Origin: Nitrospirota bacterium
Lineage (GTDB): Bacteria; Nitrospirota; UBA9217
Reading direction: 5' to 3'
Length of the DNA: 55,840 bases
NCBI GenBank assembly: GCA_029858565.1
Contig: JAOUEV010000016.1
Location: forward strand, 1-55,840
Under the pieces are notes generated by a model. That model was not told the DNA's origin. It ran no database searches and saw nothing but the letters and a program-made list of their open reading frames with translations. The first letter of the stretch is position 1. Each line of letters starts with the position of its first letter. Positions 10,025 through 49,081 of this stretch are shown one piece after another. The translations under genes were made by a program, and so were the position numbers.

Positions 10025-10032
10025 GTTTCAAC

Positions 10033-13582: not shown

Positions 13583-13687
13583 TCTCGCGCAAAGGCGCCA
13601 AGCCGCAAAGGAAAGCAATGATCAAATTCTTGCTTCCTGTACTGAATCCTAAGGCCGTTCTTAGCGTCTTTGCGGCTTTGCGCGAGA
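13583..13687. repeat. Inverted 9-mer-periodic element
   Basis: TCTCGCGCAAAGGCGCCAAGCCGCAAAG ... CTTAGCGTCTTTGCGGCTTTGCGCGAGA. Confidence 0.9.
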
Positions 13688-13713
13688 ACGCCTTTTGCTT
13701 TTTTGGTCTGTCC

Positions 13714-15328: not shown

Positions 15329-15403
<75 letters not shown>

Positions 15404-15415: not shown

Positions 15416-15444
15416 ATTATAATGATAGCCCCGTGCACTGTCAA
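15416..15444 (-). promoter_or_regulatory. Consensus sigma70 promoter of tRNA-Gly
   Basis: TTGACA-N17-TATAAT. Confidence 0.9.
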
Positions 15445-16606: not shown

Positions 16607-16635
16607 ATTATAGACCCCGTCCCAAATGTTGTCAA
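16607..16635 (-). promoter_or_regulatory. Consensus sigma70 promoter of fdx-trxA-tlpA
   Basis: TTGACA-N17-TATAAT. Confidence 0.85.
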
Positions 16636-19600: not shown

Positions 19601-19732
19601 CAGAGCATGCGAAAAGCAGCAATGGCGATAGAAGGCATCGTGAAGGGCGATTTTTCAGCAAAGCCGCTGGACAAGAACCGGTGCATGTTCTGCGCGAACG
19701 AGATGATGTGCGGAAAAGAACCGGAGGAATGA
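16667..19732 (+). CDS. addB: AddB/RexB-like helicase-nuclease subunit (PD-(D/E)XK, Fe-S staple)
   Basis: Inactive helicase N-terminal region; YLNCPYDYY, KIDRID...VVDYKTG, QLPVY, CMFC...C. Confidence 0.88.
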   Translation: MRTQLIPYGADGWREKLKLIDELLAEPGGPPFLYNDVLVLVPSSRLRRTYGRLVVERALEKLGTATISPPDIRTLHQLLQHLHARSGGRPLIDENSRLVLVEGIVKERMASLPFADPIPDTLAPSLAAAVADMIEELGAAGIGPERLSGAIAASGIGDKRQVALLEQAYCRYQEVLSAKGLNDPAAMIVELAENFDPAWLARYRRVIVDGLHDAGDLQARVLRKIALHEQSTFLIEAPGADLVRNASDQHPLRLIKEFCARLGIMLGEDRSASGTDAGFLAAALFADRPFGESAASAPPSFAPRLDALSGVTMREEVSLIAGRVKDSLRSGTIPDSVLVAFPSLDEYGPLVEEIFRDYGIPYNRALGRQLSTSAVATALVSLLQTVQDNCSGRSLLRVLSSPFLKFSEDHSVAPAFERLMRGQRILDGREQWLKAARTASSDEKGRDILSGPLQDLFTALDPFFTSDALPLSGWMERAEALLRWSGMAERVALIKGPLNVNLQSFKKLSEVMASLSRAGRLFPEYRYSFDEWSFLLRKTFMHARFQVPPDDEGGVQVLGLEESASHAWSEIYLGGLIDGKFPQRLPQNIFLPEATLETLGVRPLEQARMNAAYHFYRLLLSAPRVTLTWPENQGDRPVVASPFLAELKPLEIAGLLNRGMERTRQFQFSLRPEDARSVAELAKAIAVTGAPVCLDEVLRSDMDSMPAVRSAYQTQPSPAPAAIPIPGITTFSVTDLDVYLNCPYDYYVKKILGIEPLEEVTEDISPSDRGSRVHAILKRFYEEWQEPVTSSNLDQARGLLLSLSEGYYKRDADTFRNRREKDLFVTTVAERFLTAETGFWTQGFRPFFLEQRIDDFTFNLGSGREFTLTAKIDRIDVDDKGNFVVVDYKTGKYPQPKMGPDQEIFQLPVYACMAIRSLAGRSPALGKPVGLAYYDLAGKFGNVARDVVLYDKDAGFDQPAVKPKASPRSTEEFNAILDQSMRKAAMAIEGIVKGDFSAKPLDKNRCMFCANEMMCGKEPEE

Positions 19733-19734
19733 CT

Positions 19735-19761
19735 GTAGGGGCGGGTTTCAAACCCGCCCGC
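19735..19761 (+). repeat. GTAG-type REP palindrome
   Basis: GTAGGGGCGGGTTTCAAACCCGCCCGC. Confidence 0.92.
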
Positions 19762-20056
19762 AAAATAGGATCGACAAACAATGCCATTCAATCCCGACAT
19801 CCATCATCGTAAATCCATCCGCCTGAAGGATTACGATTACTCCCAGAGAGGCGCGTATTTTGTGACGGTGTGCACATGGAATCGGGAACATTCCCTTGGA
19901 ACGATTGAGCAAAACGTTCTGCAACCATCCGGCTGCGGAGATATCGTTCTTGATTGCTGGAATGCTTTGCCGAACCATTACCCACATATCATGCTTGATG
20001 CATTTACTTTGATGCCGAACCATATCCATGGGATTATCATGATCATGAACGATGTT

Positions 20057-20085
20057 GTAAGGGCGGGTTTAAAACCCGCCCCTAC
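20057..20085. repeat. REP palindrome inside the RAYT coding sequence
   Basis: GTAAGGGCGGGTTTAAAACCCGCCCCTAC, encoding VRAGLKPAPT. Confidence 0.9.
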
Positions 20086-20299
20086 GGAGAATCATCATGG
20101 CCTGTCTGAAATCGTTCGGGCTTTGAAAACTTTCTCCTCTCGACGGATTAACGCCTCCCGCAAAACTCCGGGCATGCCGGTGTGGCAACGGAACTATTAC
20201 GAACATGTGATCCGGAACGACGACGATCTGAATGCCATACGGGAATATATACAATACAATCCCGCAGGATGGGACAGGGACGAGGAGAATCCCCATTTT

Positions 20300-20328
20300 G
20301 TAGGGGCGGGTTTCAAACCCGCCCCTGC
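20300..20328 (+). repeat. REP palindrome in the 3' end of RAYT
   Basis: GTAGGGGCGGGTTTCAAACCCGCCCCTGC, encoding VGAGFKPAP. Confidence 0.92.
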
Positions 20329-25514: not shown

Positions 25515-25617
25515 GGGAGGATTCCTTTCCTGAGTTGCCTACGATAAAGATACGTTATGACTTGGCAGGTAAATTTTGAGCAAAAAACGTACTGCTGTAA
25601 AAAAGCCTAAACCCGTT

Positions 25618-25706
25618 TTCGCGCAAAGCCGCAAAGACGCAAAGGAGATCATAAAAGATTATGTATAACGTTGCCTTTCTTTGCGGCTTGGCGTCTTTGC
25701 GCGAGA
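25618..25706. repeat. Inverted 9-mer-periodic element
   Basis: TTTCGCGCAAAGCCGCAAAGACGCAAAG ... CTTTGCGGCTTGGCGTCTTTGCGCGAGA. Confidence 0.9.
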
Positions 25707-25742
25707 CGCCCTTCTTTTGATTTTTCCGAGGCTAGATTGCTG

Positions 25743-28093: not shown

Positions 28094-29365
28094 TTACAGC
28101 AGGATTATCTGCCCCTTGGGCTCGCCCTGTTCCAGCCGCTCAAATATCCGTATCTTACCATATTCGCCGTCGTACCCGGGCGCGATGCGGACCTTTCCCG
28201 CGCGCATGAGCGTGACCGCCTCGGCAACAGCGGGCGTTGACGCGGCCTCGATGTCGCGGGGCTCGGCCTTGAGCAACACCGAGAACTCGTTGCCCAGGTC
28301 ATCAAGCATCTTTTCGTGGATCGCGCGGACCTTTTTCGTGTTCACCCCGCACTGCAGGGTCTCGGCAATGATCTCGGCCAGGGGAATGATGCTGGAATAT
28401 CCCGGCGCGTCCTTGGGACGGAATCCCTCCTCGCGGTCAGCCAGTTTGTCCACGCGGTGCATCACGCCCACGGTCACGCGCTTGCCGCAGGACGGGCAGA
28501 GATAGTTGTTCCTGACCGTTTCCCTCGGCGTAAGGCTTACGCCGCAGTCCCGGTGGCCGTCATAATGGTATTTCCCCTCTTCGGGAAAGAACTCGATCGT
28601 TCCGCCGAAGCCCTGCTTCGTCTTGATCGCGTCTATCATCGCACCATAGGAGATATCGGTATCGAAGATATTCGCCTCGCGGCCGAGCTTTGCCGCGGAA
28701 TGGGCATCGGAATTCGAGACCAGCGTGAGATCGTCGAGTTTCGACAAACGCCAGTTCATGGCAGGATCGGAGGAAAGTCCGGTCTCGATGGCGTGAATGT
28801 GCGGGGTCAGGTCCTCAAAGCACTCCTCCATCGTATCAAAGCCCGACATGGCGCCGAAGACCGAGAACCAGGGGGTCCAGACATGGGCGGGGATGAACAT
28901 TCCCTCGGGCGAGGCATCGAGCGTCATCCTGAGCAGTTCCTTCGCATCCAGCCCGAGGATCGGCCTGCCGTCGGAATGGAGGTTCCCGATCTTCGCCAGG
29001 GACGCGTTCAATCGCTCCGCGGACGCGAAGTCCGGCATCAGCACCACGGCATGGACTTTCCGGGTTTTTCCGTTCTTGCTGTAGATGCAGCTGATCTCCG
29101 CGGACAGGATGAACGAGACCTCGGCTGCGCAGGACGCTGGCACGTCATTGGCGCGGTACTTGTTCTTGAGCGAGAACAGCCCCGGCTCCCCCGGCTCCGT
29201 CTTTTCTTTCAGTTCTTTGATCCATGCGGGATGGGTGAAGTCGCCGGTGGCGATCACCCGGATGCCCTTGAGCTGCGCCGCACGCCAGAGCCCCTCCGGG
29301 GACATGTCCTGGCTGGTGGCGCGGGAGTATTTCGAATGCACATGCAGGTCGGCGATAAAAGACAT
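28094..29365 (-). CDS. Endonuclease Q family (PHP domain + Zn finger)
   Basis: DLHVHSKYSRATS, TGDFTHP, PAHVWTPWFS, IETGLSSD, SNSDAHS, GKYHYDGHRDC..CPSC, PGYDGEYG. Confidence 0.92.
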   Translation of the reverse strand: MSFIADLHVHSKYSRATSQDMSPEGLWRAAQLKGIRVIATGDFTHPAWIKELKEKTEPGEPGLFSLKNKYRANDVPASCAAEVSFILSAEISCIYSKNGKTRKVHAVVLMPDFASAERLNASLAKIGNLHSDGRPILGLDAKELLRMTLDASPEGMFIPAHVWTPWFSVFGAMSGFDTMEECFEDLTPHIHAIETGLSSDPAMNWRLSKLDDLTLVSNSDAHSAAKLGREANIFDTDISYGAMIDAIKTKQGFGGTIEFFPEEGKYHYDGHRDCGVSLTPRETVRNNYLCPSCGKRVTVGVMHRVDKLADREEGFRPKDAPGYSSIIPLAEIIAETLQCGVNTKKVRAIHEKMLDDLGNEFSVLLKAEPRDIEAASTPAVAEAVTLMRAGKVRIAPGYDGEYGKIRIFERLEQGEPKGQIILL

Positions 29366-29457
29366 GGCGGATTATAACACGAAACAGCGGATTTTCCAGA
29401 GAGAAGCGGCGGAAGGCACGGGAGCGGCTTCGGCTATAGCAGTTTTCCAGGTTTTGC

Positions 29458-29486
29458 TTGACAACCCCGGGAGGAATGCATATACT
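29458..29486 (+). promoter_or_regulatory. Strong sigma70 promoter facing the cassette island
   Basis: TTGACA-N17-TATACT. Confidence 0.8.
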
Positions 29487-29541
29487 CGATTCTCAGCACT
29501 TCCCCATTTATTCACGCATTAAAAATTGAATACCGAAGTCG

Positions 29542-29611
29542 GTAGGTCGGGTAGAGCGTTCATAGCGAAACCCGACATTTGTTGGGTTTCACTGTGGTCT
29601 ACCCAACCTAC
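29542..29611. repeat. GTAG REP doublet (REPIN-like)
   Basis: GTAGGTCGGGTAGAGC...GAAACCCGACA TTTGTTGGGTTTC...CTACCCAACCTAC. Confidence 0.88.
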
Positions 29612-29636
29612 AAACTAGTTATACCATAGAGAAAGA

Positions 29637-31097
29637 ATGCGCACCCTATTAACCATAGCCGTAATCATATATGTTATCCACCTTATATCAAATGTCTTTC
29701 GAAGGAGACATGATCTTGCTACCCCTCCAGAGATTGATAGCCCTCAGCAAATATCACATCAACAGCGATCAAGATCCCACAAAAAGGCTCATTCCGATAT
29801 TGATATTGCAGATATAGAAATCAACGAGGACTACAAGGCCGTTCTAAATCTGGTAGAAGTACAGAATAAAAGTGTCTATGTTACAGGCAAAGCAGGAACA
29901 GGTAAATCTACGCTCCTAAAATATCTGATAGCTACGACAAAGAAAAACATGGTTGTATTGGCACCCACGGGACTTGCGGCGATAAACGTTGGCGGCCAAA
30001 CCATTCACTCCTTCTTCAGATTCCCGCCGAAGCTTATCAAGAGGGAAGATATTAAACCCTCTAGAAATGCAATCTTATACCAGAAGCTTGATGCAGTGAT
30101 AATTGATGAAGTATCTATGGTGCGCGCGGACCTCATGGATGGCATTGACCACTCGTTGAGATTAAATAGACGAAGGCCGCACGAACCATTTGGTGGCGTT
30201 CAAATGATATTTTTTGGGGATTTGTTTCAACTCCCGCCTGTTGTCAGGGGTAAAGACCTTGAAGCCTATTTCAAGGAAGTTTATGGGGCACCGTATTTCT
30301 TCTGTTCTAAAGCAATTCGAAACAGCGGCATAGGCTTTATTGATCTGAAAAAGATTTACAGACAATCGGATGGCGACTTCATACAAATATTGAATAGTAT
30401 AAGAGAGAACAAATTGACCGCTGGTACCTTACGAGAGTTAAATAGCAAAGTTGTCACGAACCTCGCGAGTGTGGCACGTAAGGACTGCGTTACCTTGACA
30501 ACTACCAATAAAGCTGCGTTCGAAATTAACGAAGAATTCTTGGGAGCGATAAAGGAAAAGGAGTTTGAGTACTCCGCCGATATTCAGGGGAAATTTGATC
30601 AAAGCGATTATCCAACAGAAGCAAGCTTACGCCTGAAAAGAGGCGCAAGAATCATTCTTCTTCGGAATGACCCATTTAAGAAATGGGTAAATGGCACCCT
30701 AGCCCGAGTGTCTGATTTGGGAGAAAACAGAATCAGCATCGACGTTGATGGTTCTAAATATGAGATTAATAAGGAAATTTGGAAGAAGATCGAATATTAC
30801 TATGATAGGAATACGAAGAAGATAGAAGAGCGAGTGATTGGCAGTTTTGAACAATATCCCATTCGCCTTGCGTGGGCGATCACAATTCACAAGAGCCAGG
30901 GGCAAACGTTTGACCGCGTTTATATTGATCTGGGCAGTGGTGCTTTTGCTCATGGCCAGACATATGTCGCGTTGAGTAGATGTACTTCTTTTAATGGCAT
31001 ACAATTGCGCAGGCCTGTGGAGTCACGAGATGTAATATTCGACCCAAGAGTCTATGGTTACGCAAAAGTAATGGCAAACCACAGCCATAATGTATAA
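29637..31097 (+). CDS. Pif1/RecD-like SF1B helicase with N-terminal membrane anchor
   Basis: TGKAGTGKS, APTGLAA, TIHSFF, IDEVSMVRAD, FGDLFQLPP, QYPIRLAWAITIHKSQGQT, YVALSR. Confidence 0.93.
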   Translation: MRTLLTIAVIIYVIHLISNVFRRRHDLATPPEIDSPQQISHQQRSRSHKKAHSDIDIADIEINEDYKAVLNLVEVQNKSVYVTGKAGTGKSTLLKYLIATTKKNMVVLAPTGLAAINVGGQTIHSFFRFPPKLIKREDIKPSRNAILYQKLDAVIIDEVSMVRADLMDGIDHSLRLNRRRPHEPFGGVQMIFFGDLFQLPPVVRGKDLEAYFKEVYGAPYFFCSKAIRNSGIGFIDLKKIYRQSDGDFIQILNSIRENKLTAGTLRELNSKVVTNLASVARKDCVTLTTTNKAAFEINEEFLGAIKEKEFEYSADIQGKFDQSDYPTEASLRLKRGARIILLRNDPFKKWVNGTLARVSDLGENRISIDVDGSKYEINKEIWKKIEYYYDRNTKKIEERVIGSFEQYPIRLAWAITIHKSQGQTFDRVYIDLGSGAFAHGQTYVALSRCTSFNGIQLRRPVESRDVIFDPRVYGYAKVMANHSHNV

Positions 31098-31149
31098 TCT
31101 GGTGTTCGAGAGGGGCCTTGAAACTGCCCCCTCATCAACCGCGTTGGCT
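31092..31149 (+). mobile_element. attC-like recombination site
   Basis: GTATAAT-CTGGT-GTTCGAG-AGGGGC...GCCCC-CTCATC-AACCGC-GTTGGCT; R'' overlaps the helicase stop and mirrors GTTATAC at 29618. Confidence 0.72.
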
Positions 31150-31158
31150 TGGAGTCCT

Positions 31159-32244
31159 ATGATTACGAAGTTTCATGATGCAATGCGACTATATGGCGGG
31201 CGTCTCAACCACGAACACTTAGAAGAGTCAGGGATAACGCTAATTGAAGCCTATCGCACGCGAGCTGAACGCTTAATTGCTAGTGCCCGACGCGATCATC
31301 CTCGCTTACCTGCAATTCACTTCGACTACGTCAATAATAATTCTTTGAATGCCTATGCGTTCAAATGGGGCGGCGACTATTTTATCGGAATTACTTGGGG
31401 CGCCTTCACCATTCTACGGCTTCTGTTTATGCGGATGTTGGCAGATAAAAATGCACTGCTGACAATCGGCGACCCAAATCGAGAAGGTAATAATTTGCTC
31501 CCACTTGACAAGATGATTACGATAGGGCCGTCAGTACAATTACCATCCACTGGTCGCCTAGTTGTCGGTGCACCGCAAGACCCAACTCGTTTGCAGTTTG
31601 CTGTCACCGCTTTTGAAACAGCATTCTCCTTTTTGATCCGACATGAAATTACGCATATCCTCCACGGTCACCTCTCCCACCCTCTAGTAGCCTCCACAGA
31701 AGCGCTGCTCCCAGAGTTTGGTTGGCAACCCAAAACAGCGTCTGCGTCTTCGACTCGTCAAGTTCTCGAATATGATGCGGACAGATATGCTTCAATCGGG
31801 CTAGCAAAGTCTTTTATGTCTCATATTTCGACAGCACAAAATAATAGCATCGATCATCGTGCTTTCATGACGGAAACGTTTGTTGGTATAGGCTCAATGT
31901 TCCGGTTATTTGGCGATGCGAGTGCTTCGGGTTTAGATCTAGGCACCCTCCCGTACCCTCCTGTTAGATATCGCCAATATATTAGCATGACGGGGTTCTG
32001 CGATTACTTGAACATGGCAGCTAATAAAACCTTATTCGAGCTCTCGCAGGCCGTCTTTACCGAATCTTTTGCAGCGATAGAGAACGCATTCCCTAATTTC
32101 ACAAAAGTTGAGCCGTCAATCGAAGGACTTAATGAAGTATTGTCTGCCAATGGACGAAGGCATATCCAATGGCTCTTTGACGAATGGCAGAATCGGGTCA
32201 AGGGCGAATTACTGCCGTATTCCTTTGCTAAATTTTTATCTTAA
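31159..32244 (+). CDS. Lit/peptidase U49-like Zn metalloprotease
   Basis: LNAYA, FLIRHEITHILHGH (HExxH), QVLEYDAD, YPPVRYR; GGAG RBS before ATG 31159. Confidence 0.7.
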   Translation: MITKFHDAMRLYGGRLNHEHLEESGITLIEAYRTRAERLIASARRDHPRLPAIHFDYVNNNSLNAYAFKWGGDYFIGITWGAFTILRLLFMRMLADKNALLTIGDPNREGNNLLPLDKMITIGPSVQLPSTGRLVVGAPQDPTRLQFAVTAFETAFSFLIRHEITHILHGHLSHPLVASTEALLPEFGWQPKTASASSTRQVLEYDADRYASIGLAKSFMSHISTAQNNSIDHRAFMTETFVGIGSMFRLFGDASASGLDLGTLPYPPVRYRQYISMTGFCDYLNMAANKTLFELSQAVFTESFAAIENAFPNFTKVEPSIEGLNEVLSANGRRHIQWLFDEWQNRVKGELLPYSFAKFLS

Positions 32245-32249
32245 AGTTG

Positions 32250-32330
32250 GTAGGTTGGGCAAAAGGCTCATCTTGCCCAACTTTTCGTCAATAGCAGACG
32301 CGTTGGGCTTCATGCCTCAGCCCAACCTAC
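32250..32330. repeat. GTAG REP doublet (REPIN-like)
   Basis: GTAGGTTGGGCAAAAG...TTGCCCAAC ... GTTGGGCTTCATGCCTCAGCCCAACCTAC. Confidence 0.88.
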
Positions 32331-32364
32331 GACTTACCGCCGCTATTATCTGTAAAGGACCAAC

Positions 32365-33369
32365 ATGTTCAATGACCTAGAAAAAGAAATAAAACGCTTA
32401 AATGGCCAATCAGTATCTGTCCCGATTGAATCAGACGAAAAAGGATATATAGACAAGGAATGCCCATCAGCAGAATGTAAGTTCATCTTCAAGGTAAATA
32501 AGGCTGACTGGGCTAATATATTTAAAGATGAAGCAGTCTGGTGCCCTTTTTGCCGACATGAAGCACCGGCAAAGCAATGGTTCACAACAGAACAAGTCAA
32601 ACACGCTAAAGCCGAAGTGTTTACAGTTGTAAAGGGAATAATTCATAACACTTTAAAGTCACGCGCAGAAAAGTTCAACCGTAGTCAAACTAGAAATGGT
32701 TTTTTCACAATATCCATTGAAGTTAAAGGTGGTGTAAAGCGAACATACCCAATCCCTGTCAAAGCTGCTGAATCGATGAGGCTTGAGATACAGTGTGAAA
32801 AATGCCAGTCTCGTTTCGCAGTTATCGGCAGTGCATATTTTTGCCCTGCATGTGGTCACAACTCAGTTGTCCGAACATTCTCAGACTCACTCAGAAAGAT
32901 CACAGCAAAGAAAGACAGCATTCATATAATCAGAAAGACTCTCATTGAATCAGCAGGAAAAGATGAGGCAGAGTTGGTCTGCCGATCGCTTCTCGAATCT
33001 TGCATTTTGGATGGCGTTGTTGCATTCCAAAAATATTGCGAAGGTTTATACAATCGTTTTGGTGAAGCACCATTCAATTCGTTTCAGCGTCTAGATCAAG
33101 GTAGTAGTCTCTGGCGTAGTGCTATTCAAAAAGGCTATAGTGCTTGGTTGTCTGATCCGGAGCTAGCCGCTCTTAATATTCTTTATCAAAAGAGACATAT
33201 ACTTGCCCATAATGAAGGGATTGTTGACTCACGATATTTAGAAAAATCCGGCGACGTAGCATACAAGGAAGGCCAGCGAATTGTCGTTTCGGAAACAGAC
33301 ATCGATATTCTGGTATCGACACTCGACAAGTTAAGCAAAGGAATTAAAGAAATGTGTGACAATATATAA
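32365..33369 (+). CDS. Double Zn-ribbon protein with C-terminal HEPN-like RxxxxH domain
   Basis: CPSAEC/CPFC and CEKC/CPAC pairs; KRHILAHNEGIVD. Confidence 0.72.
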   Translation: MFNDLEKEIKRLNGQSVSVPIESDEKGYIDKECPSAECKFIFKVNKADWANIFKDEAVWCPFCRHEAPAKQWFTTEQVKHAKAEVFTVVKGIIHNTLKSRAEKFNRSQTRNGFFTISIEVKGGVKRTYPIPVKAAESMRLEIQCEKCQSRFAVIGSAYFCPACGHNSVVRTFSDSLRKITAKKDSIHIIRKTLIESAGKDEAELVCRSLLESCILDGVVAFQKYCEGLYNRFGEAPFNSFQRLDQGSSLWRSAIQKGYSAWLSDPELAALNILYQKRHILAHNEGIVDSRYLEKSGDVAYKEGQRIVVSETDIDILVSTLDKLSKGIKEMCDNI

Positions 33370-33412
33370 CAAGCGCGACCACAGCGAAGCGCCAAGTGCG
33401 GCGCGTCAGCGC
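33364..33412 (+). mobile_element. Truncated attC-like site at the island boundary
   Basis: ATATAAC-AAGCGCGACCACAGCGAAGCGCC...GCGGCGCGTCAGCGC; resembles the 2644-2702 site; R' is missing where the GNAT 3' end begins. Confidence 0.65.
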
Positions 33413-33909
33413 CCCATTTCCCGCCACCTCCCATCCGCCAGCACCACCGACGTCTCGGTCTGGCGCTCCGGGATGTTCCAGTACTTCCTGAGCAGCCGCT
33501 CCTTCTCCTCCCACGTCACAAGCCGGAATCCATGCTTCTCGTAGAACCGGACCGCCCAGTCCGCGGCCTGCCAGGTCCCGACCAGCATCGGCCGGGCCGA
33601 GAGCGTCTTGAGGTGCTCGATCAGCCTGCCGCCGACGCCCCTGCCGCGGTCCGCGGTCCGGACATAGGCATGCCGGATTAGCGTTACGTCCTGCACATCC
33701 TGGATGCCCATGACGCCGAGCAGTTTCCCCTCTCCTTCATACCCCCAGAAGACAACGCCTGCTTCCTGTTCATGCCTGAGATAGTCAACTGACATGTACG
33801 GTTCCCGCCACCGGTCAGCCGGAATGCGGCCTTTGTATGCCTGGGCAGCGTCATTGATGATTGCGAGAATGCTGTCGAAGTCATTTGATTCGCAGCAACG
33901 GATCATCAT
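33406..33909 (-). CDS. GNAT N-acetyltransferase
   Basis: RHAYVRTADRGRGVG, AVRFYEKHGF. Confidence 0.9.
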   Translation of the reverse strand: MMIRCCESNDFDSILAIINDAAQAYKGRIPADRWREPYMSVDYLRHEQEAGVVFWGYEGEGKLLGVMGIQDVQDVTLIRHAYVRTADRGRGVGGRLIEHLKTLSARPMLVGTWQAADWAVRFYEKHGFRLVTWEEKERLLRKYWNIPERQTETSVVLADGRWREMGR

Positions 33910-35852
33910 TCGGTCCTCTGCACAACCGCCCTCGCCTCTTCAAGCCACGTTGCCACGGCCTGCTCAAGCGTTCTTTGCTCCTGACCCGATATCCCCCGGG
34001 GATCGAACCGGTACCGGTAATGGAGCGCGAGCGCTTCGCCAAGTCCCTGCACCGACAGGCCGTTCTGCCCGTTGATCCGTTCGAGCCAGAGGCCGCAGGT
34101 CTCTCCGGACCTGCGCTCCCATTCAGTCGCCTGCAACAGCCTCTCGACTGCGGAAAAAGGCGAATCGCTCCCTAATCGGGGAACGGGAACTTCTTTTTCT
34201 TTCACCGAACCCGGCCTGCGGCGGAACCGCTTTCGCAATTTCCATGCTCCGGACAAAACCAGCGCCAGGACAGCGCCAAGTCCATAAGAACGATAAGCTG
34301 CCATACCGCTCCCCTCGCTCCAACGCCATTTGGAAATCTGAAAGGACAGAAAGGACCACAGATCCCCTGCAGGACCGAGCAGGCCTGTTGACGCCTGTTC
34401 GTCCTTGACCCAGCTCGGCGGCGTGGGATCGAAGGTTTGCCAGGAACCATCAACCCAGACCAGGACCCATGCATGGGCATCGCGGGAACGGACCAGGAAC
34501 GCCTTTTCAAGGGAGCTGTATTCATGGGCAAGGTATCCCACGGCATAGCGCGCAGGCACGCCTGCTTTCCTGAGCAGAAGCGTTGCCGCGGTGGCGAAAT
34601 ATTCGCAGTGGCCTGCCCGCGTTGTTTGCAGAAATCCCGCAAGAGGCGTTTCTGCGCCGTTTCCCGATTTTAGATCGAGCGTATACACGAAGCGGTCTTC
34701 GAAATATCGCTGGACCCTGTCGAGAGCGGCTGTTGGTTTGAGAGATGACAGTTTCAGCTCGGACTCGGTTGCTGAAATCGCTGGTTCTTCCTGCTTTGGC
34801 ACGGCCAGGTCGCTTTCGTCCGGCGGACCGAGGAATGACCTTTTGTCACGAGAGCGTTGCGTCCGGAACACTGCGAGTCCCGGCCCGCCCTCCACCGTGA
34901 CCGCTCCAAGACGGCTCACCACAAGGGACAATGCTTTCAGTCCGCTTACGTTAACACCATCGCTCAACAGGACAAGAGAGCCCTCTCCGTGCCTGAGAGT
35001 CATCGAAATTTCCACTGAATCCGGGGACGGAGTTCCCGGTCCGAGCATCCATCCTCCCTCGCCTGCTGCAGCACGAGCAGAGGACGCTTTTACGCCGTAC
35101 CAGGATTGCTTCCGATACACATTGTAGCTCGTTGAAAAAAGATAGAGCGGATTCCCTGAGGGGGGAATATTCGCGGCGCGCAGGACGACCCTGCTTGATT
35201 GCTTCCGTTTCCCAATATCTCCTATGGCAGTTGCAACGGACGTGGTATCGATCTCCTGCTGGAACGACCGGAGATAGAGACTTTCCACGGTCTTCTGGAG
35301 TTCGCGCAACGAGACTGCGCCGCCGAAACCCATGATCGAGACCGCGCCAAAGAGCGCGATCCAGACAAGGACCGAAGAACCCCTTGGCCGCGCGTTCCAG
35401 AGCATCCAGCCGATCAGGATCGCCAGGCAAGGAAAGAACCAGACAGCCTGCTCCTGCGCTGAGGAGGCAGCGCCGAGCACCAGCATGGCATAGGGGACGC
35501 CGAGATTGAACGGCTCCATCCTGATCCAGAGGAAGAAGATCCGCGAATCGATCCGCGCCGTGGTGCTGAAGGACTGGGCAGCCACAAGAGGGAAGAATAT
35601 GGCCGGCGCCCACTGCAGCGGCCGGAGCGCCTGTTCCCTGTTCACGAGAAAGACCACTCCGAGAATGATCAGGAACAGGACGGACGATAGTCTCCAGATC
35701 CGCGAGAAGTCCCGCTCCGCAAGGTTCATCCGCCAGGCTACGATGCGGTGCGCCTCGAGCACGAGCGCCATCGGCACGGCAGCAGCAAGCAGCCCTGTCT
35801 GCCAGCCCCAGAACAGGAGCGACAGGCCGATCAGGAGCGGCGGCGTGTTCAC
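33906..35852 (-). CDS. Membrane transglutaminase-like protein (TgpA-like)
   Basis: Multi-TM N-terminus; GHCEYFA, DAHAWV, FDPTP catalytic triad; GTG start overlaps the DUF58 stop. Confidence 0.88.
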   Translation of the reverse strand: MNTPPLLIGLSLLFWGWQTGLLAAAVPMALVLEAHRIVAWRMNLAERDFSRIWRLSSVLFLIILGVVFLVNREQALRPLQWAPAIFFPLVAAQSFSTTARIDSRIFFLWIRMEPFNLGVPYAMLVLGAASSAQEQAVWFFPCLAILIGWMLWNARPRGSSVLVWIALFGAVSIMGFGGAVSLRELQKTVESLYLRSFQQEIDTTSVATAIGDIGKRKQSSRVVLRAANIPPSGNPLYLFSTSYNVYRKQSWYGVKASSARAAAGEGGWMLGPGTPSPDSVEISMTLRHGEGSLVLLSDGVNVSGLKALSLVVSRLGAVTVEGGPGLAVFRTQRSRDKRSFLGPPDESDLAVPKQEEPAISATESELKLSSLKPTAALDRVQRYFEDRFVYTLDLKSGNGAETPLAGFLQTTRAGHCEYFATAATLLLRKAGVPARYAVGYLAHEYSSLEKAFLVRSRDAHAWVLVWVDGSWQTFDPTPPSWVKDEQASTGLLGPAGDLWSFLSFQISKWRWSEGSGMAAYRSYGLGAVLALVLSGAWKLRKRFRRRPGSVKEKEVPVPRLGSDSPFSAVERLLQATEWERRSGETCGLWLERINGQNGLSVQGLGEALALHYRYRFDPRGISGQEQRTLEQAVATWLEEARAVVQRTE

Positions 35853-37195
35853 AGGCTCATCATCCCTTCGGCGATTTTCCCGGTCTCGAGCACATGAAAG
35901 GATTCGAGCCGGCCACTCATGGGACCGGGATCGAGCGGACGGCCCGCCGGCTCTTGCACAACGATGACCTTGACCGGGATGCCGAGCGCCTGCAGCTTTC
36001 CCACGAAATCCCTGCGCTCCCGGTCCCATGCGAGCAGCACGCAGATGCAACTCGACAGGAGCCCTGCCCTGCCCAGCACGAGGCTTTCGAGCGAGTCAAG
36101 GGAACGGTCCGGACAGGCCCGCGCGCAGGCCAGGACTTCGAGCGCCCGCTCGGCCCGGCCGATGCTCCGGCCGGTGGTGATGCAGTATGCCTCGTTCCCC
36201 ACGAACATGAGGTCAAGAAGCGAATCGTTCGTCTCGACCTGCGCCAGAAAGGACGCGGCAACAGAGAGCGCTTCTTCGAATACCCGGTCCTCGCCAGGGG
36301 AAAAGGTATCGAGCACCAGGGCATGGCGCGCGAAGAACTCGTCAGCATGTTCCTTTACCACCGGTCTTCCGGTCCTTGCCCAGCTCTTCCAGTGGATGTT
36401 CCTGAGCGGATCTCCCTGGCGGTAGTCCCTGAGCGACATGAACTCATCGGAATTTCCGATGTTCGATGCGAGCGTGACGCCGCCCTGGTGGTACTTTCTG
36501 CCTCCGCCGAGCCGCATCTGCGGCAAAGGGTAGCGCTTCGGAAGGATGAGGATCGACTGGGCCGACGGAACTGCCCTGACTGAGCGGAACAGGCCGAAGG
36601 GATCGCTCCTGCCGACTGCCAGGGCCTCGAACTGCAGGCGTCCCCTGCGCAGCGGAACAAGGTCAAGAGAAAGCTCAGTCACTCCCCGTGCAGGCACTAT
36701 GGGAAGATCTTGGCGAGTTGGCTCGGCGATCCGGTCACGGTCCGTGAGCATGCGCCAATCGCGGTACATGGAGTCCCTGATCCATTTGCGGCCGTGAGCA
36801 TACCCGTACTCGACCCGTGCGCTGAACTCGGCAAAGGACGGCCGGGGATCGCTGAAGCGCTCGGTCAGGGAAAGGTTCCTGAGCAGCCTGTGGCCGGTGT
36901 TCCGGAGAGTGATCCGGTAGGTGAAGGGCTGGCCTGCGGTCCCGAACCTGGGCAGGTCGCGGCGCAGTTCAAGGGACGGTCGAAAACGCCTGTTTATGAG
37001 GAAAGCAACAAGGACCAGCGCGGCAAGGAGCGTGAACGCTTCATGGGCCGCGTTCTTGGTCGTGTCCATGCCGAGAACCGCTGACCCCGCAAGGCCCGCG
37101 AGAACGAGGAGGCCCGCAGTCGTGGCCCGCTGGGACAGGCTGTGGCGAAGGCCGGAAACAAGCCGCAGAAGAAAGTAGTAGATCCTGATGGCCAT
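35849..37195 (-). CDS. DUF58 domain protein
   Basis: EFMSLRDYRQGDPLRNIHWKSWAR...VVKE; DPFGLF. Confidence 0.9.
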   Translation of the reverse strand: MAIRIYYFLLRLVSGLRHSLSQRATTAGLLVLAGLAGSAVLGMDTTKNAAHEAFTLLAALVLVAFLINRRFRPSLELRRDLPRFGTAGQPFTYRITLRNTGHRLLRNLSLTERFSDPRPSFAEFSARVEYGYAHGRKWIRDSMYRDWRMLTDRDRIAEPTRQDLPIVPARGVTELSLDLVPLRRGRLQFEALAVGRSDPFGLFRSVRAVPSAQSILILPKRYPLPQMRLGGGRKYHQGGVTLASNIGNSDEFMSLRDYRQGDPLRNIHWKSWARTGRPVVKEHADEFFARHALVLDTFSPGEDRVFEEALSVAASFLAQVETNDSLLDLMFVGNEAYCITTGRSIGRAERALEVLACARACPDRSLDSLESLVLGRAGLLSSCICVLLAWDRERRDFVGKLQALGIPVKVIVVQEPAGRPLDPGPMSGRLESFHVLETGKIAEGMMSL

Positions 37196-37208
37196 GTTCA
37201 AAAACAAA

Positions 37209-37357
37209 TTAACAGGCTGTTGAAAAAGTCGCTCTCTCCTGCTTAGCTCGTCATCCCCGTGAAAACGGGGATCCAGAACAACTTGAAAACACTGGATTCC
37301 CGCTTGCGCGGGAATGACGGCCAAGGATATAAAAATCGTTTTTCAACAACCTGTTAA
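37209..37357. mobile_element. TIR-bounded MITE containing a CGTC-type REP doublet
   Basis: TTAACAGGCTGTTGAAAAA ... TTTTTCAACAACCTGTTAA enclosing CGTCATCCCCGTGAAAACGGGGATCCAG ... CTGGATTCCCGCTTGCGCGGGAATGACG. Confidence 0.85.
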
Positions 37358-37480
37358 GAATTCAGAATTATGAATTAAGAATTGCTACCTTTGCCACGGA
37401 TGAACACGGATGCACACGGATATAATATGAATCAAAATTCAAAGTATTGCTCGCAGTGGTTTTAAATTCCGCATTCCGAA

Positions 37481-38431
37481 TTAAACCGGCGCTTGCACCG
37501 TTTTCACAATCTCCTTCACCACGTTCTCCGCTGTCACACCCGAGAACTTTGCCTGGGGATCGAGGCTCAAGCGGTGGGCGATCACCGGAACGGCGATCTC
37601 CTGAATATGGTCAGGCGTCACGAACTCCCTGCCGTCCATGAGCGCAAGGGCCTGGGCAGCCTTGGTGAGCGCAATCGAGGCCCGCGGGCTCGCCCCGAGC
37701 CGGACCCCCTTCGCTCCCCGCGTTGACGCAACCAGATCAACAGCATACTGCCGCACCTCGGCGCTCATGCGCACATCAGCAGCATGGCCGCGGAGCGCGA
37801 GAATATCGTCCACCGATGCGCAGCTCCTGACGTCTGCGATGGGGTGGCCCTTGCTCTGCGACGCGATGATCGCAGCCTCTTCCCGGCGCGACACATAGCC
37901 CAGGCCGAAATGGAACGCGAAACGGTCCATCTGCGCCTCGGGCAAGGGATAGGTTCCGTGGGATTCCACGGGGTTCTGGGTGGCGATCACGAAGAAGAAA
38001 TCGTCGAGCTTCCTGATTGTCCCGTCCGCGCTCACCCGGCCTTCTGCCATTGCTTCGAGCAGGGCCGACTGGGTCCGGGGCGAGGACCGGTTGATCTCGT
38101 CGGCCAGCACGATGTTCGCGAACACCGGGCCTTCATGGAACCGGAACGCCTGTTCCTTTTGGTCGTAGATCGAGACGCCGGTGATGTCCGACGGCAGCAG
38201 GTCCGGCGTGAACTGGATGCGCTTGAACCGCGCGCTCAGGGAGAGCGCCAGGGCCTTGGCCAGCGTGGTCTTGCCCGTGCCGGGATAGTCTTCGAGCAGC
38301 ACATGGCCTCCGCTCACCACCGCGGCCAGGAGCTTGCGGATCGCGGCGCCCTGGCCGCGGATCACGGTCTCGATGTTCGCCGTGATCCTGTTGAACAACT
38401 CCCTGCTGAACTCCATGTCCTTCTGCGTCAT
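37481..38431 (-). CDS. MoxR family AAA+ ATPase
   Basis: LLEDYPGTGKT, IQFTPDLLPSD, LADEINR, ATQNP, LPEAQMDRF. Confidence 0.95.
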   Translation of the reverse strand: MTQKDMEFSRELFNRITANIETVIRGQGAAIRKLLAAVVSGGHVLLEDYPGTGKTTLAKALALSLSARFKRIQFTPDLLPSDITGVSIYDQKEQAFRFHEGPVFANIVLADEINRSSPRTQSALLEAMAEGRVSADGTIRKLDDFFFVIATQNPVESHGTYPLPEAQMDRFAFHFGLGYVSRREEAAIIASQSKGHPIADVRSCASVDDILALRGHAADVRMSAEVRQYAVDLVASTRGAKGVRLGASPRASIALTKAAQALALMDGREFVTPDHIQEIAVPVIAHRLSLDPQAKFSGVTAENVVKEIVKTVQAPV

Positions 38432-48104: not shown

Positions 48105-48159
48105 TGTTTTTCTCCTATTCCGGGCTTGCCGGAACTGATAAATTAAAAAGACACTGCGA

Positions 48160-48304
48160 TCTCGCGCAAAGCCGCAAAGGCGCTAAGAAGACCTGTTATT
48201 AAGCAATCGCCGCTAAAGAAGTTAAATTCTTCGATCCATGATGATCTCTAAGTTAATTTCAATAGCATTGGCCTTTCTTTGCGACTTGGCGGCTTTGCGC
48301 GAGA
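48160..48304. repeat. Inverted 9-mer-periodic element
   Basis: TCTCGCGCAAAGCCGCAAAGGCGCTAAG ... CTTTGCGACTTGGCGGCTTTGCGCGAGA. Confidence 0.9.
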
Positions 48305-48308
48305 CGGA

Positions 48309-49081
48309 CTAGCCTTTTTTCCCAAAAGCAAACAGCCTGGTGAAACGGAACTCTATCCCCTTCTCAGTCCGGTTCTTCTCAAATCCCTCTCCAAAAGCTT
48401 CTATGAAGCAGGGATGGGCGATTTCAGGCAATGACGCGAGATAAGGACGCAAACCCGCTGACGTCCACCAGGCAAGGACATCAGCCCTGTCATTGAACAC
48501 AAGATCATATACCCTGGTAACCACGTCCACTGCCCCGAAGCCGGCATCTGTCAGATAGCCGCATATTCCTCCTGATCAGGGAAATGCCAGGGCGATCGCC
48601 AGCCTTCAAAGAATCGTTCGTACCCCAGTTCCGATATGGCCGTTTCAACGGATGCGCTGAACTCCCTGCAGAAGTTCTTTGCAGGGAACTGAAATGCGAT
48701 CCTGCCGCCCTTTTTGAGCGCCTGATAAGAGGCCATGGCTGCTTTCGGCTGGTCCTGGACCCAGTGCATCGCTGAATTGGAGAACACCAGCTCGAACTGT
48801 TCTGCATATCCGATGTCTTCGGCAGCAGCACGAACCAGGCTCACGTTGCCGTCATCCGACGAGATGATCCGCGCTTTTTTCAGCATCTCCTCTGACGGAT
48901 CAAGGCCCGTGACCCTGCCTTTTGTCGCGAGACGCGCCAGTTCGATCGTCAGCTTGCCCGTGCCGCAGCCCAGGTCCAGGATATGATCGTCCTCCCGCAC
49001 CTGCGCAAGGCTGATAAGCTCCCTGCCCGCGTCGATCTGCGGCGCTTTCACGGCGTCGTACTGCTGCGCGTCCCACTTCAT
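48309..49081 (-). pseudogene. Trans-aconitate methyltransferase-like (Tam) gene with a 1-nt frameshift near 48553
   Basis: MKWDAQQY, LDLGCGTG, FSNSAMHWV; ...EEYAAI then TDAGFGAVDVVTR...LRPYL...RFTRLF in the adjacent frame. Confidence 0.8.

What the first reader, a model, noticed from the sequence alone, without database searches (positions are those of the whole stretch)
29458..33412. Candidate anti-phage cassette array: membrane-anchored Pif1 helicase, Lit-like protease and Zn-ribbon HEPN protein
Seen: an AT-rich three-gene island behind a near-consensus promoter (29458-29486). Gene 1 is bracketed by GTTATAC (29618) and GTATAAT (31092), near-perfect R'/R'' complements, followed by a full attC-like hairpin. 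Gene 3 ends in ATATAAC plus a truncated attC resembling the one at 2644. Established: Lit (peptidase U49) is a phage-triggered EF-Tu protease, HEPN RxxxxH domains are RNase effectors in abortive infection, and integron cassettes can carry defence genes. Inference: a fixed, host-promoter-driven array of possibly new defence genes, acting separately or as a sensor-protease-RNase unit.
Basis: partly seen in the sequence, partly recalled or inferred. Interest (0 to 1): 0.82.

Follow-up and report, generated by a model that had tools for sequence, protein, structure and literature searches.

The report
Immobilised integron cassettes with candidate defence genes
A small foreign DNA islet holds three unrelated genes (a membrane-anchored helicase, a zinc protease and a zinc-ribbon RNase-like protein), at least one of them a stranded integron gene cassette; they are plausible but untested phage-defence genes and do not look like one three-part system.

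Summary
The three genes, the AT-rich islet and the near-consensus promoter are real. The islet lies between a PHP-family gene and a GNAT gene, which are adjacent or nearly so in two relatives.

Gene 3 (two zinc ribbons plus a HEPN domain with an invariant Rx4H motif) is a genuine integron cassette. Its relatives in 13 genomes of many phyla have no shared neighbours and mostly carry cassette boundaries. In the window it keeps a 59-nt attC of the same family as attCs elsewhere in the genome, one of them on the contig of one of its two intI genes. That attC ends in ATT instead of GTT and overlaps the GNAT stop codon.

Cassette boundaries for genes 1 and 2 are only suggestive. The two strong hairpins in the islet are REP doublets of the host, not attC sites.

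Gene 2 is a soluble M48-like zinc peptidase. Membership in Lit/U49 is not supported. Gene 1 is a Pif1 helicase of a subfamily with an N-terminal hydrophobic anchor.

None of the 13 gene-3 loci or 19 gene-1 loci holds a clear relative of the other two genes, so a sensor-protease-RNase unit is unlikely.

The best defence lead is gene 3: its N-terminal domain matches the PADLOC candidate PDC-M14A. This is a new member of a known kind.

The parts
28094..29365 (-). Left flank: conserved PHP-family gene (423 aa)
   Evidence: Orthologues at 67-74% amino-acid identity in 9 relatives' loci. Weak Pfam PHP_C match.
29458..29486 (+). Sigma-70-type promoter-like site, TTGACA-17-TATACT, pointing at gene 1
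   Evidence: 11 of 12 matches. Sites of this quality are about 16-fold enriched in the window over shuffles. Activity not tested.
29537..29616 (.). REP doublet 'a': two inverted GTAGG-headed palindromes, in the 5' leader of gene 1
   Evidence: DNA fold -19.4 kcal/mol, z -3.69. Half-copies flank a Y1 transposase (RAYT-like) ORF at C82:36954-37271 of the same genome.
29618..29624 (+). GTTATAC, an R'-like cassette 5' boundary 13 nt before the ATG of gene 1
   Evidence: Read from the sequence. The same heptamer is the R' box of gene-3 cassettes in L010 and L011. As a 7-mer alone it may be chance.
29637..31097 (+). Gene 1: 486-aa Pif1-family SF1B helicase with an N-terminal hydrophobic anchor
   Evidence: Pfam PIF1 1.9e-29. 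PHROG Dda-like helicase 7e-82. Kyte-Doolittle 19-aa maximum is 2.15, and 8 of 10 relatives examined exceed 1.6 (a threshold recalled by me, from no call).
31092..31149 (+). attC-like candidate (GTATAAT ... hairpin ... GTTGGCT) between genes 1 and 2; unsupported
   Evidence: Read by eye. Fold z -0.42 and -1.08. No BLAST relative. Not found by attC model R1 at E<=10.
31159..32244 (+). Gene 2: 361-aa soluble M48-like gluzincin (H162 E163 xx H166 ... E204 xx A207 D208)
   Evidence: AF2 pLDDT 92.5. The 11 best VIA matches are all zinc peptidases of families M13, M48 and M49, Z 7.2-9.9. 51 of 83 family members match Pfam M48.
32244..32335 (.). REP doublet 'b' between genes 2 and 3
   Evidence: DNA fold -23 kcal/mol, z -4.69. 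A 93% identical copy lies at C88:31740-31830 and partial copies on C62.
32345..32351 (+). ATTATCT: degenerate R' box marking the 5' boundary of the gene-3 cassette
   Evidence: 9 of 13 homologous loci carry GTTA[CT][GA]C 22-27 nt upstream of the ATG. L013 carries the same ATT variant.
32365..33369 (+). Gene 3: 334-aa protein with two Cys4 zinc ribbons (16-166) and a C-terminal HEPN domain (165-334, R277x4H282)
   Evidence: Invariant Cys, Arg and His residues. PADLOC PDC-M14A 3.4e-15. VIA Z 11.1 to HEPN protein 4nqf; the 13 best matches are all HEPN proteins.
33364..33422 (+). attC of the gene-3 cassette: R'' ATATAAC, R' ATTTCCC (core ATT, not GTT); overlaps the GNAT stop codon
   Evidence: Model R1, trained only on attCs outside the window: 20.4 bits, E 0.0014. 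Same family as C128:4418-4479, which lies on the contig of one intI gene.
33406..33909 (-). Right flank: GNAT acetyltransferase gene; its last three codons and stop lie inside the attC
   Evidence: Pfam GNAT families. Orthologue C-terminal tails compared.

Best explanation
The 3.9-kb AT-rich stretch is a horizontally acquired islet. It lies between two chromosomal genes that are adjacent or nearly so in two relatives.

Its right-hand gene is an integron gene cassette captured away from any integrase. It still carries its own 59-nt attC, but the recombination core reads ATT instead of GTT, and the attC now supplies the last codons and the stop of the neighbouring GNAT gene. The cassette is therefore probably stuck in place.

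Genes 1 and 2 may have arrived the same way. Cassette-like boundary heptamers remain, but their sites are decayed or were never there. Host REP doublets later settled in two intergenic spacers. A strong sigma-70-type promoter upstream could transcribe all three genes.

The three genes are independent passengers, not one system.
- Gene 3 is predicted to be a single-protein HEPN ribonuclease. Its double zinc-ribbon N-terminal domain would be the sensing or regulatory part, as in toxin-like abortive-infection effectors. This is the best defence candidate.
- Gene 2 is a soluble M48-like zinc peptidase with an intact active site and an unknown substrate.
- Gene 1 is an active-looking Pif1 helicase tethered to the membrane.

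Shown: gene content, folds, motifs, attC homology, lack of co-occurrence, and absence from kin. Inferred: the order of events, immobilisation, co-transcription and any anti-phage role.
For: Foreign origin. GC is 0.43-0.50 against about 0.60 in the flanks. At the thresholds used, the islet genes were found in few of 400 other genomes of the phylum: gene 1 in 43, gene 2 in 0 and gene 3 in 1. None was found in the 63 genomes of the same family. The closest relatives of gene 3 (59-72% identity) are in other phyla.

Insertion. In relative G012 the PHP and GNAT genes are about 160 nt apart. In same-genus G001 they flank a single GC-rich membrane-protein ORF.

Assembly. An independently assembled 9,004-nt contig of the same run spans 28314-35000 with no differences.

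Integron link.
- The genome has 2 IntI genes above the NCBIfam cut-off, on other contigs.
- Ten genomic sites belong to one attC family, two of them in the window.
- A model trained on 9 attCs outside the window finds 2644-2703 (45 bits) and 33364-33422 (20.4 bits, E 0.0014); the next best hit has E 0.29.
- Among gene-3 relatives, 9 of 13 loci have GTTR 22-27 nt upstream of the ATG, and 8 of 13 have the stop codon inside TAAC. L008 has the same attC on both sides.

Independence. No neighbour is shared across the 13 gene-3 loci. Gene 2 is in 0 of 13; gene 1 gives only one weak helicase hit. Genes 2 and 3 are in 0 of 19 gene-1 loci. The families also differ greatly in how many near relatives the word-index search returned: 565 scored for gene 3, 8 for gene 2 and about 8000 for gene 1; an exhaustive search finds 1003 cluster representatives for gene 2.

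Functions. See the calls listed under parts (3, 4, 39, 43, 45, 51-55, 108, 109).

REP identity. Both hairpins are GTAGG-headed palindromes, and the same type flanks a Y1 transposase ORF at C82.
Against: - Only one attC in the islet passes a test. No IntI lies in the window, nor within 6 kb of gene 3 in any of 13 loci, and 3 of 5 genomes checked lack an IntI. 'Integron-derived' is therefore firm for gene 3 only.
- The attC hit is modest (20 bits) and does not fold better than shuffles (z -1.1 to -1.5).
- PHP-GNAT adjacency is seen in 1 relative (G012) and near-adjacency in 1 more (G001). In five others the two genes matched on different contigs, and in G014 they lie about 164 kb apart on one contig.
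- No expression data exist.
- No defence-database model covers a whole protein. The PDC-M14A match covers only the ribbon domain and is itself an untested candidate.
- Pfam HEPN_RiboL-PSP is matched by only 2 of 42 members, at E 0.035 or worse.
- The REP head is not enriched genome-wide: 22 hits against 16-98 for permuted motifs.
Confidence: 0.6

Rival explanations
1. The three genes form one co-operating defence system: the helicase senses, the protease relays and the HEPN RNase executes. They would be inherited and expressed as an operon.
For: Same strand and short spacers (61 and 120 nt). One strong promoter-like site upstream and no plus-strand terminator-like site between the genes. All three are absent from kin.
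Against: No co-occurrence anywhere that was examined: 0 of 13 gene-3 loci hold gene 2, gene 1 gives one weak 25.6% helicase hit there, and 0 of 19 gene-1 loci hold genes 2 or 3. Gene 3 travels as a solitary cassette. Contexts of the close gene-2 relatives could not be fetched.
Confidence: 0.05
2. The islet is a generic genomic islet from some other mobile element. The integron features are incidental: a single stray attC-like sequence and chance heptamers.
For: No integrase in the window. Only one model-supported attC in the islet. The candidate site after gene 1 fails every test. REP elements and a RAYT-like fragment occur in the window.
Against: The attC after gene 3 aligns over the full length of a model built from attCs outside the window (one on an intI contig), with E 0.0014 against 0.29 for the next hit. 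Gene 3 relatives carry cassette boundaries in most loci. The window's own gene 3 keeps the TAAC stop and an R'-like box at the homologous place.
Confidence: 0.15
3. Gene 3 is not anti-phage. It is a self-regulated toxin or addiction-type RNase whose spread reflects selfish maintenance in cassette arrays. Genes 1 and 2 are housekeeping-like accessories (DNA repair helicase, protein-quality-control peptidase).
For: HEPN domains are common toxins of toxin-antitoxin pairs, and such toxins (HepT, SO_3166) are among the top structural matches. That integron arrays are rich in toxin-antitoxin cassettes is recalled knowledge, not from a call. Bacterial Pif1 and M48 peptidases have ordinary cellular roles.
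Against: No antitoxin-like partner is conserved next to gene 3. The ribbon domain matches a PADLOC defence-candidate model in 42 of 42 members. On two plasmids the relatives sit beside a PLD-like protein and a P-loop NTPase near transposases, which is typical defence-islet company though weak evidence.
Confidence: 0.2

Closest known systems
Integron gene cassettes outside an integron (CALIN / solitary attC, in the terms of IntegronFinder 2; recalled)
   Same: A probably promoterless ORF followed by an imperfect-palindrome attC, with R'' overlapping the stop codon. The same attC family occurs elsewhere in the genome, one copy on the contig of an intI gene. The gene occurs as a cassette in many phyla.
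   Different: Only one supported attC in the islet. The R' core is ATT. The site overlaps a host gene's stop codon. A host-type promoter and REP doublets are present. The nearest IntI genes are on other contigs.
HEPN abortive-infection and toxin RNases (HepT, AbiV, LsoA, Csm6 HEPN domains)
   Same: Four-helix HEPN fold (Z 11.1, rmsd 2.7 over 125 residues to 4nqf; Z 10.4 to 8xdj) and an invariant Rx4H motif.
   Different: Fused to a 150-residue double zinc-ribbon domain. No MNT or antitoxin partner. Below threshold for every Pfam HEPN model. Activity untested.
PADLOC candidate system PDC-M14 (protein A)
   Same: Residues 16-166 match 146 of the 152 profile positions, E 3.4e-15; 42 of 42 family members match.
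   Different: Here the domain is fused to HEPN. No other PADLOC model matched gene 3, so no match to a protein B, if PDC-M14 has one. PDC-M14 is a prediction: a full-text search for 'PDC-M14' found 0 papers.
Lit (peptidase U49) of E. coli prophage e14
   Same: An HExxH helix followed by an E-x-x-A-D helix. hhalign aligns 56 columns around them. The PADLOC Lit model touches 42 residues.
   Different: hhalign probability is 14.7%. 0 of 83 members match Pfam U49, and 8 of 83 match PADLOC Lit at E 0.001-0.01 only. The rest of the protein is unrelated by sequence. No Lit structure was available for comparison.
M48 peptidases (soluble forms such as BepA and the Geobacter protein 3c37)
   Same: Gluzincin fold (Z 9.0 to 3c37, 8.3 to BepA, 7.7 to ZMPSTE24) and active-site motifs. 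51 of 83 family members match Pfam M48 at E<=0.1, best 1.4e-7.
   Different: The window's own protein scores 14.2 bits, below the 20.3-bit cut-off. It has an extra C-terminal helical domain. M13 peptidases score as high structurally (Z 9-9.9).
Bacterial Pif1 helicases (SF1B; phage Dda-like)
   Same: Full helicase core with Walker A (GKAGTGKS) and DExx.
   Different: An N-terminal hydrophobic segment and basic linker, shared by the closest relatives. Sits in a foreign islet, with no Pif1 in 63 same-family genomes.

Membership tests
Integron gene cassette | attC downstream of the ORF: R'' (RYYYAAC) - L'' ... L' - R' (GTTRRRY) imperfect palindrome | tested here: inconclusive
   Gene 3: full-length match to attC model R1 (20.4 bits, E 0.0014), with R'' ATATAAC present but R' reading ATTTCCC. 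Gene 1: the candidate at 31092-31149 was not detected. Gene 2: no attC; a REP doublet fills the spacer.
Integron gene cassette | The same gene is found as an attC-bounded cassette in other genomes | tested here: met
   Gene 3: 9 of 13 loci have an R' box 22-27 nt upstream, 8 of 13 have a TAAC stop, and L008 has identical attCs on both sides. Genes 1 and 2: could not be tested because no contexts could be fetched.
Integron (complete) | intI with attI and Pc adjacent to the cassettes | tested here: not met
   IntI genes above the cut-off lie only on contigs C137 and C128, not in the window.
HEPN superfamily | Rx4-6H motif in a four-helix bundle | tested here: met
   R277 and H282 are invariant in 42 of 42 sequences. 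VIA Z 11.1 (rmsd 2.7, 125 aligned) to 4nqf, and the 13 best matches are all HEPN proteins. Foldseek probabilities 0.8-0.97 but E>=0.1.
Pfam HEPN_RiboL-PSP (PF18735) | Profile match above threshold | tested here: not met
   Window protein: no match at E<=1. 2 of 42 members match, at E 0.035 or worse. UniRef nevertheless names two relatives this way.
Peptidase U49 (Lit) | Profile-level similarity over the peptidase domain | tested here: not met
   Pfam U49: 0 of 83. PADLOC Lit: E 0.0066 over 42 residues, 8 of 83 members. hhalign probability 14.7%.
Peptidase U49 (Lit) | Phage-peptide-triggered cleavage of EF-Tu | not testable with these tools
   Needs biochemistry.
Peptidase M48 / gluzincins | HExxH plus a downstream Glu ligand helix in the zincin fold | tested here: met
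   H162, E163, H166 and E204 are invariant or nearly so in 83 sequences. The 11 best VIA matches are zinc peptidases, Z 7.2-9.9.
Peptidase M48 / gluzincins | Pfam PF01435 above the gathering score | tested here: not met
   14.1-14.2 bits against a cut-off of 20.3 for the window protein. 51 of 83 relatives match at E<=0.1.
Pif1 helicase (SF1B) | Pfam PIF1 above threshold with intact Walker A and B | tested here: met
   103.3 bits against 25.9. GKAGTGKS and IIDEVSM are present in the translation.
PADLOC PDC-M14 | All component proteins present | tested here: inconclusive
   Protein A model matched. No other PDC-M14 model matched any of the three proteins at E<=1. The make-up of PDC-M14 could not be looked up.
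REP / REPIN elements | GTAG-headed palindromes in inverted pairs, the same type flanking a RAYT (Y1 transposase) | tested here: met
   Elements a and b. a-type halves at C82:36834-36870 and 37460-37489 flank a Y1_Tnp match at C82:36954-37271. Copy number is low. The definition of REP/RAYT is recalled.

The most novel reading that the evidence does not exclude
The double-zinc-ribbon-HEPN protein defines a widespread, cassette-borne, single-gene anti-phage system not yet tested. It has at least 565 clusters at 90% identity and is 59-84% identical across Pseudomonadota, Nitrospirota, Chlorobiota, Bacteroidota, Campylobacterota and the window's own phylum. In this reading the ribbon domain, shared with PADLOC candidate PDC-M14A, senses a phage component and releases the HEPN RNase. 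The window would show such a cassette domesticated under a host promoter.
Probability: 0.35. Interest if true: 0.6.

Novelty: new member of a known kind. Interest (0 to 1): 0.42.

Why it matters
Integron cassettes are already known to carry phage-defence genes; I read passages of the bioRxiv preprint 10.1101/2024.07.02.601719, which reports defence systems among cassettes of unknown function. This locus adds three things.

1. A concrete, very widespread and unusually conserved cassette family (zinc ribbons plus HEPN), a ready candidate for a plaque-assay screen.
2. An uncharacterised family of soluble M48-like peptidases, with about 1000 cluster representatives.
3. An example of a cassette stranded at a non-integron site. 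Its attC core has decayed, it rewrote the end of a host gene, and it has acquired a host promoter and host REP elements.

None of this overturns current views.

Tried and rejected
- Both metagenome-contig scans for gene 2 contexts found nothing.
- The gene 2 family was not found in 400 further genomes of the phylum, in 401 genomes around a Halomonas genome, or in 5 genomes holding gene 3.
- Gene 2 had no plasmid match and one weak phage match, 24% identity, annotated M48. Gene 3 had no phage match.
- Foldseek against the PDB gave no hit at E<=0.001 for either model. Profile searches of PDB sequences gave nothing useful.
- HEPN-domain homodimer prediction: no verdict.
- No RNA holder was listed for the islet, so there is no expression evidence either way.
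- Rfam gave no credible match in 29300-33500.
- My ad hoc attC finder (AAC...GTT plus fold) gave many false positives in GC-rich coding DNA. I used it only to get coordinates.
- MAFFT alignments of attCs from several organisms were out of register. Model R1 was therefore built from 9 sites of this genome only. It is specific to that family, and its miss at 31092-31149 is no proof of absence.
- I first considered elements a and b as attC sites. I rejected this because GTT lies on the 5' arm and AAC on the 3' arm, the reverse of attC, and because they are REP-type.
- No IntI lies within 6 kb of gene 3 relatives.
- Supplements of papers were not consulted.

Full report
WHAT IS THERE

The window is one whole contig (C19) of a 3.9-Mb, 144-contig genome assembled from a sediment metagenome.

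Between 29.4 and 33.4 kb the GC content falls to 0.43-0.50, from about 0.60 on both sides. The stretch holds three plus-strand ORFs:
- gene 1, 29637-31097 (486 aa);
- gene 2, listed from 31090 but almost certainly starting at 31159 (361 aa), because all relatives align from that methionine and a GGAG precedes it;
- gene 3, 32365-33369 (334 aa).

The flanks are minus-strand chromosomal genes: a PHP-family gene (28094-29365) and a GNAT acetyltransferase gene (33406-33909).

TTGACA-17-TATACT at 29458-29486 is real. Sites matching 11 of 12 or better occur 5 times in the window, against 0.31 expected in 100 block shuffles (maximum 2). One lies directly upstream of the tRNA-Gly gene, so this consensus seems to be used by the organism.

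An independent assembly of the same run has one 9,004-nt contig that covers 28314-35000 without a difference. The islet is therefore not a joining artefact, although this is the same data set.

FOREIGN ORIGIN AND PLACE OF INSERTION

I searched 400 other genomes of the phylum.
- Gene 1 has relatives in 43, with a best identity of 51%. None is in the 63 genomes of the same family.
- The gene 2 family is in 0.
- Gene 3 is in 1, at 40% identity.

In relative G012 the PHP and GNAT orthologues are about 160 nt apart. In same-genus G001, two overlapping contigs show them separated by a single GC-rich membrane-protein ORF. In five other relatives the two genes matched on different contigs, and in G014 they lie about 164 kb apart on one contig. 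The empty-site argument therefore rests on two genomes.

GENE 3

It has 565 scored relatives, the best 120 at 64-100% identity. There are 13 loci in species-representative genomes: Marinobacter, Halomonas, Vreelandella, Halovibrio, Pseudomonas, Nitrospira, Chlorobiaceae, Kordiimonadaceae, Cyclobacteriaceae, Syntrophaceae, Georgfuchsia and others. Plasmid copies exist in Aliarcobacter (72% identity) and Sinorhizobium (42%).

No neighbouring gene is shared among the 13 loci. None holds a gene 2 relative, and gene 1 gives only one weak 25.6% helicase hit, in L009.

Eight cysteines in two CxxxxC...CxxC / CxxC...CxxC ribbons, together with R277 and H282 (KRHILAHNEG), are invariant in a 42-sequence alignment that includes a 21% identical paralogue.

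The AlphaFold model (pLDDT 84) has a C-terminal helical domain (165-334). Its 13 best VIA matches (Z above 8) are all HEPN proteins:
- 4nqf, Z 11.1, rmsd 2.7, 125 residues aligned;
- an AMPylated HEPN toxin, 8xdj, Z 10.4;
- sacsin HEPN, Z 9.7;
- SO_3166, Z 9.3;
- Csm6, Z 8.3.

AbiA, AbiV and LsoA follow lower in the list.

Foldseek ranks the same families first, but at E>=0.1. No Pfam HEPN model reaches threshold: HEPN_RiboL-PSP is matched by 2 of 42 members, at E>=0.035.

Residues 16-166 match the PADLOC candidate PDC-M14A (E 3.4e-15). All 42 of 42 family members match it.

On the two plasmids I examined, the neighbours are a PLD-like protein and a P-loop NTPase, next to transposases.

GENE 3 IS AN INTEGRON CASSETTE

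In the 13 loci:
- 9 have GTTA[CT][GA]C 22-27 nt upstream of the ATG;
- 8 have the stop codon inside TAAC;
- most are followed, 50-115 nt later, by GTTRRRY, with an imperfect palindrome between;
- the Pseudomonas locus has the same 73-nt site on both sides.

The window's own genome has two integron integrases above the NCBIfam cut-off (381 and 355 bits against 265). They lie on contigs C137 and C128, beside low-GC cassette ORFs and canonical attCs.

One attC family, with the inner stem CGCGCC/GGCGCG and a CACAGCGA bulge, occurs at ten places in the genome. A covariance model built from nine attCs outside the window finds two sites in the window: 2644-2703 (45 bits, E 2e-11) and 33364-33422 (20.4 bits, E 0.0014). 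The next best hit has E 0.29.

The second site starts at gene 3's ATATAAC and runs the full model length, so it is not truncated. Where its relatives read GT-GTT-RRRY, it reads CC-ATT-TCCC. The GNAT stop codon (33406-33408) lies inside its 3' arm.

GNAT orthologues share ...VVLAD and then have variable tails of 8-20 residues. The window's tail, GRWREMGR, is among the shortest, and its last three codons are attC sequence. I infer that the cassette was inserted at, or recombined into, the 3' end of the GNAT gene and can no longer move.

Upstream of gene 3, at the place homologous to the R' box, the window reads ATTATCT (32345-32351). This is again ATT, as in locus L013.

GENES 1 AND 2 AS CASSETTES

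- GTTATAC, 13 nt before gene 1, is identical to the R' of two true gene-3 cassettes.
- GTATAAT overlaps gene 1's stop.
- It is followed by a 12-bp bulged stem and GTTGGCT just before gene 2's ribosome-binding site.

Three tests fail, however. The 59-nt candidate folds no better than shuffles (z -0.42 and -1.08). It has no BLAST relative in the genome. Model R1 misses it. That model is specific to one attC family, so the result is inconclusive rather than negative.

Between genes 2 and 3 there is no attC.

THE STRONG HAIRPINS ARE REP DOUBLETS

The elements are 29537-29616 (z -3.69) and 32244-32335 (z -4.69). Each consists of two inverted palindromes headed by GTAGG. GTT lies on the 5' arm and AAC on the 3' arm, the reverse of an attC.

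Element b has a 93% identical copy at C88:31740-31830 and partial copies on C62. Halves of element a flank a Y1-transposase (RAYT-like) ORF at C82:36954-37271. Related copies occur in relatives.

A different GTAGG-headed REP flanks a weak Y1 match inside the window, at about 20.1 kb.

Copy number is low, and the head 11-mer is not enriched: 22 hits against 16-98 for permuted motifs.

GENE 2

Close relatives are few: 8 by word-index search, all from metagenomes or one NCBI record. An exhaustive search finds 1003 cluster representatives at E<=0.001, and 426 at E<=1e-10, mostly about 365 aa long.

H162, H166, G170, E204, R144 and R272 are invariant. E163, H171, A207 and D208 are nearly so. Together they give HExxHxxxGH ... 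ExxAD.

The model is confident (pLDDT 92.5). Its 11 best VIA matches are all zinc peptidases:
- M13 (PepO Z 9.9, neprilysin 9.5, Zmp1 9.1, ECE-1 9.0);
- M48 (3c37 Z 9.0, BepA 8.3, ZMPSTE24 7.7, Ste24 7.2);
- M49 (DPP III, Z 8.1).

Pfam M48 is matched by 51 of 83 members (best 1.4e-7). U49 is matched by none, and the window protein itself is below the M48 cut-off. One relative is named 'Peptidase family M48' by UniRef.

PADLOC's Lit model touches 42 residues around HExxH in 8 of 83 members. hhalign against E. coli Lit aligns only the two active-site helices, at probability 14.7%.

Gene 2 is thus a soluble M48-like gluzincin. A distant kinship with Lit is possible; membership is not shown.

GENE 1

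It is a complete Pif1/SF1B helicase: Pfam PIF1 at 103 bits, PHROG Dda-like helicase at 7e-82, with Walker A and DExx intact. About 8000 relatives were scored.

The first 20 residues are hydrophobic (Kyte-Doolittle 2.15) and are followed by a basic, proline-rich linker. Eight of ten relatives examined exceed 1.6, a membrane-segment threshold that I recall and that comes from no call. A ninth, at 1.59, has the same kind of N-terminus.

The PADLOC hits (PDC-S68, RecD-like) cover only the helicase core of much longer models.

HOW IT MOST LIKELY WORKS

The islet is a set of independent passengers. The evidence for independence is the lack of co-occurrence, the very different numbers of near relatives, and the solitary-cassette life of gene 3.

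I commit to gene 3 as a self-contained HEPN ribonuclease held in check by, or triggered through, its double zinc-ribbon domain. The fold and motif are shown. RNase activity, the trigger and the anti-phage outcome are inferred from what HEPN proteins do in abortive infection and toxin systems (established knowledge, recalled).

Gene 2 would cleave an unknown cytoplasmic protein. Gene 1 would unwind DNA at the membrane. For both, a defence role is a guess.

Transcription of all three from the 29458 promoter is plausible, since there is no plus-strand terminator-like site between the genes. It is untested.

WHAT IS KNOWN

That integron cassettes encode phage-defence systems is published. I read passages of the bioRxiv preprint 10.1101/2024.07.02.601719, and saw search listings only for the other papers. 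A full-text search for 'PDC-M14' found no paper.

The locus is a new member of a known kind. The zinc-ribbon-HEPN cassette family is the part worth testing.

LIMITS

- No genomic contexts could be fetched for gene 2, or for the close relatives of gene 1.
- There is no expression data.
- Only one family-specific attC model was used.
- Paper supplements were not seen.

Noticed in passing
window 1-2703: A second AT-rich islet (GC 0.41-0.49) with four plus-strand ORFs: 229-627, 919-1269, 1404-2168 and 2241-2582. The third carries Pfam DUF4145 (3.6e-15) and matches PHROG 1305. The islet is closed by a strong attC at 2644-2703 (model R1, 45 bits, E 2e-11). It is probably another stranded cassette or cassette cluster. 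I recall DUF4145 as a HEPN-clan family; this was not checked.
   Followed up: partly
window 19730-20326: Three copies of a GTAGGGGCGGG...CCCGCCCC palindrome (repeat family D7) surround a weak Y1-transposase match at 20093-20257. This looks like a decayed RAYT with its REPs.
   Followed up: partly
G000:C82:36834-37489: A Y1-transposase ORF (36954-37271) is flanked by inverted copies of the same REP type as element a of the islet. This is the classic REP-RAYT-REP arrangement.
   Followed up: partly
window 31096-31098, 32345-32347, 33418-33420; G000:C62 near 53338: Every cassette-boundary core in the islet carries a transition (AAT for AAC; ATT for GTT, twice). Another attC of the genome, on C62, also ends ATTAGTC. 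Either immobilised sites decay, or this is a tolerated variant.
   Followed up: no
L039 and L040 (relative G010, contigs C148 and C150): a-type and b-type palindromes recur every 381-693 nt between small ORFs in low-GC stretches. In that genome they punctuate cassette-like arrays.
   Followed up: no
window 15416-15444, 16607-16635, 49273-49301, 53281-53309: Four more sigma-70-type sites matching 11 or 12 of 12. One lies directly upstream of tRNA-Gly (15329-15403, minus strand).
   Followed up: no
window 9925-10028 (minus): TPP riboswitch (Rfam RF00059, 68.3 bits).
   Followed up: no
window 5894-6000 and families D2-D4 (e.g. 8957-9001, 13576-13700, 25610-25719, 48153-48317): Short tandem and dispersed repeats built of heptad-like units (TCCGCAC..., CGCAAAG/CTTTGCG...) lie in intergenic spacers. 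Their nature is unknown.
   Followed up: no
G000:C88:31830-31950: Directly after the second copy of REP doublet b starts a small ORF whose N-terminus looks like a HigB/RelE-type toxin (judged by eye). It lies in another low-GC islet that also holds a Y1 transposase match (C88:30680-31009).
   Followed up: no
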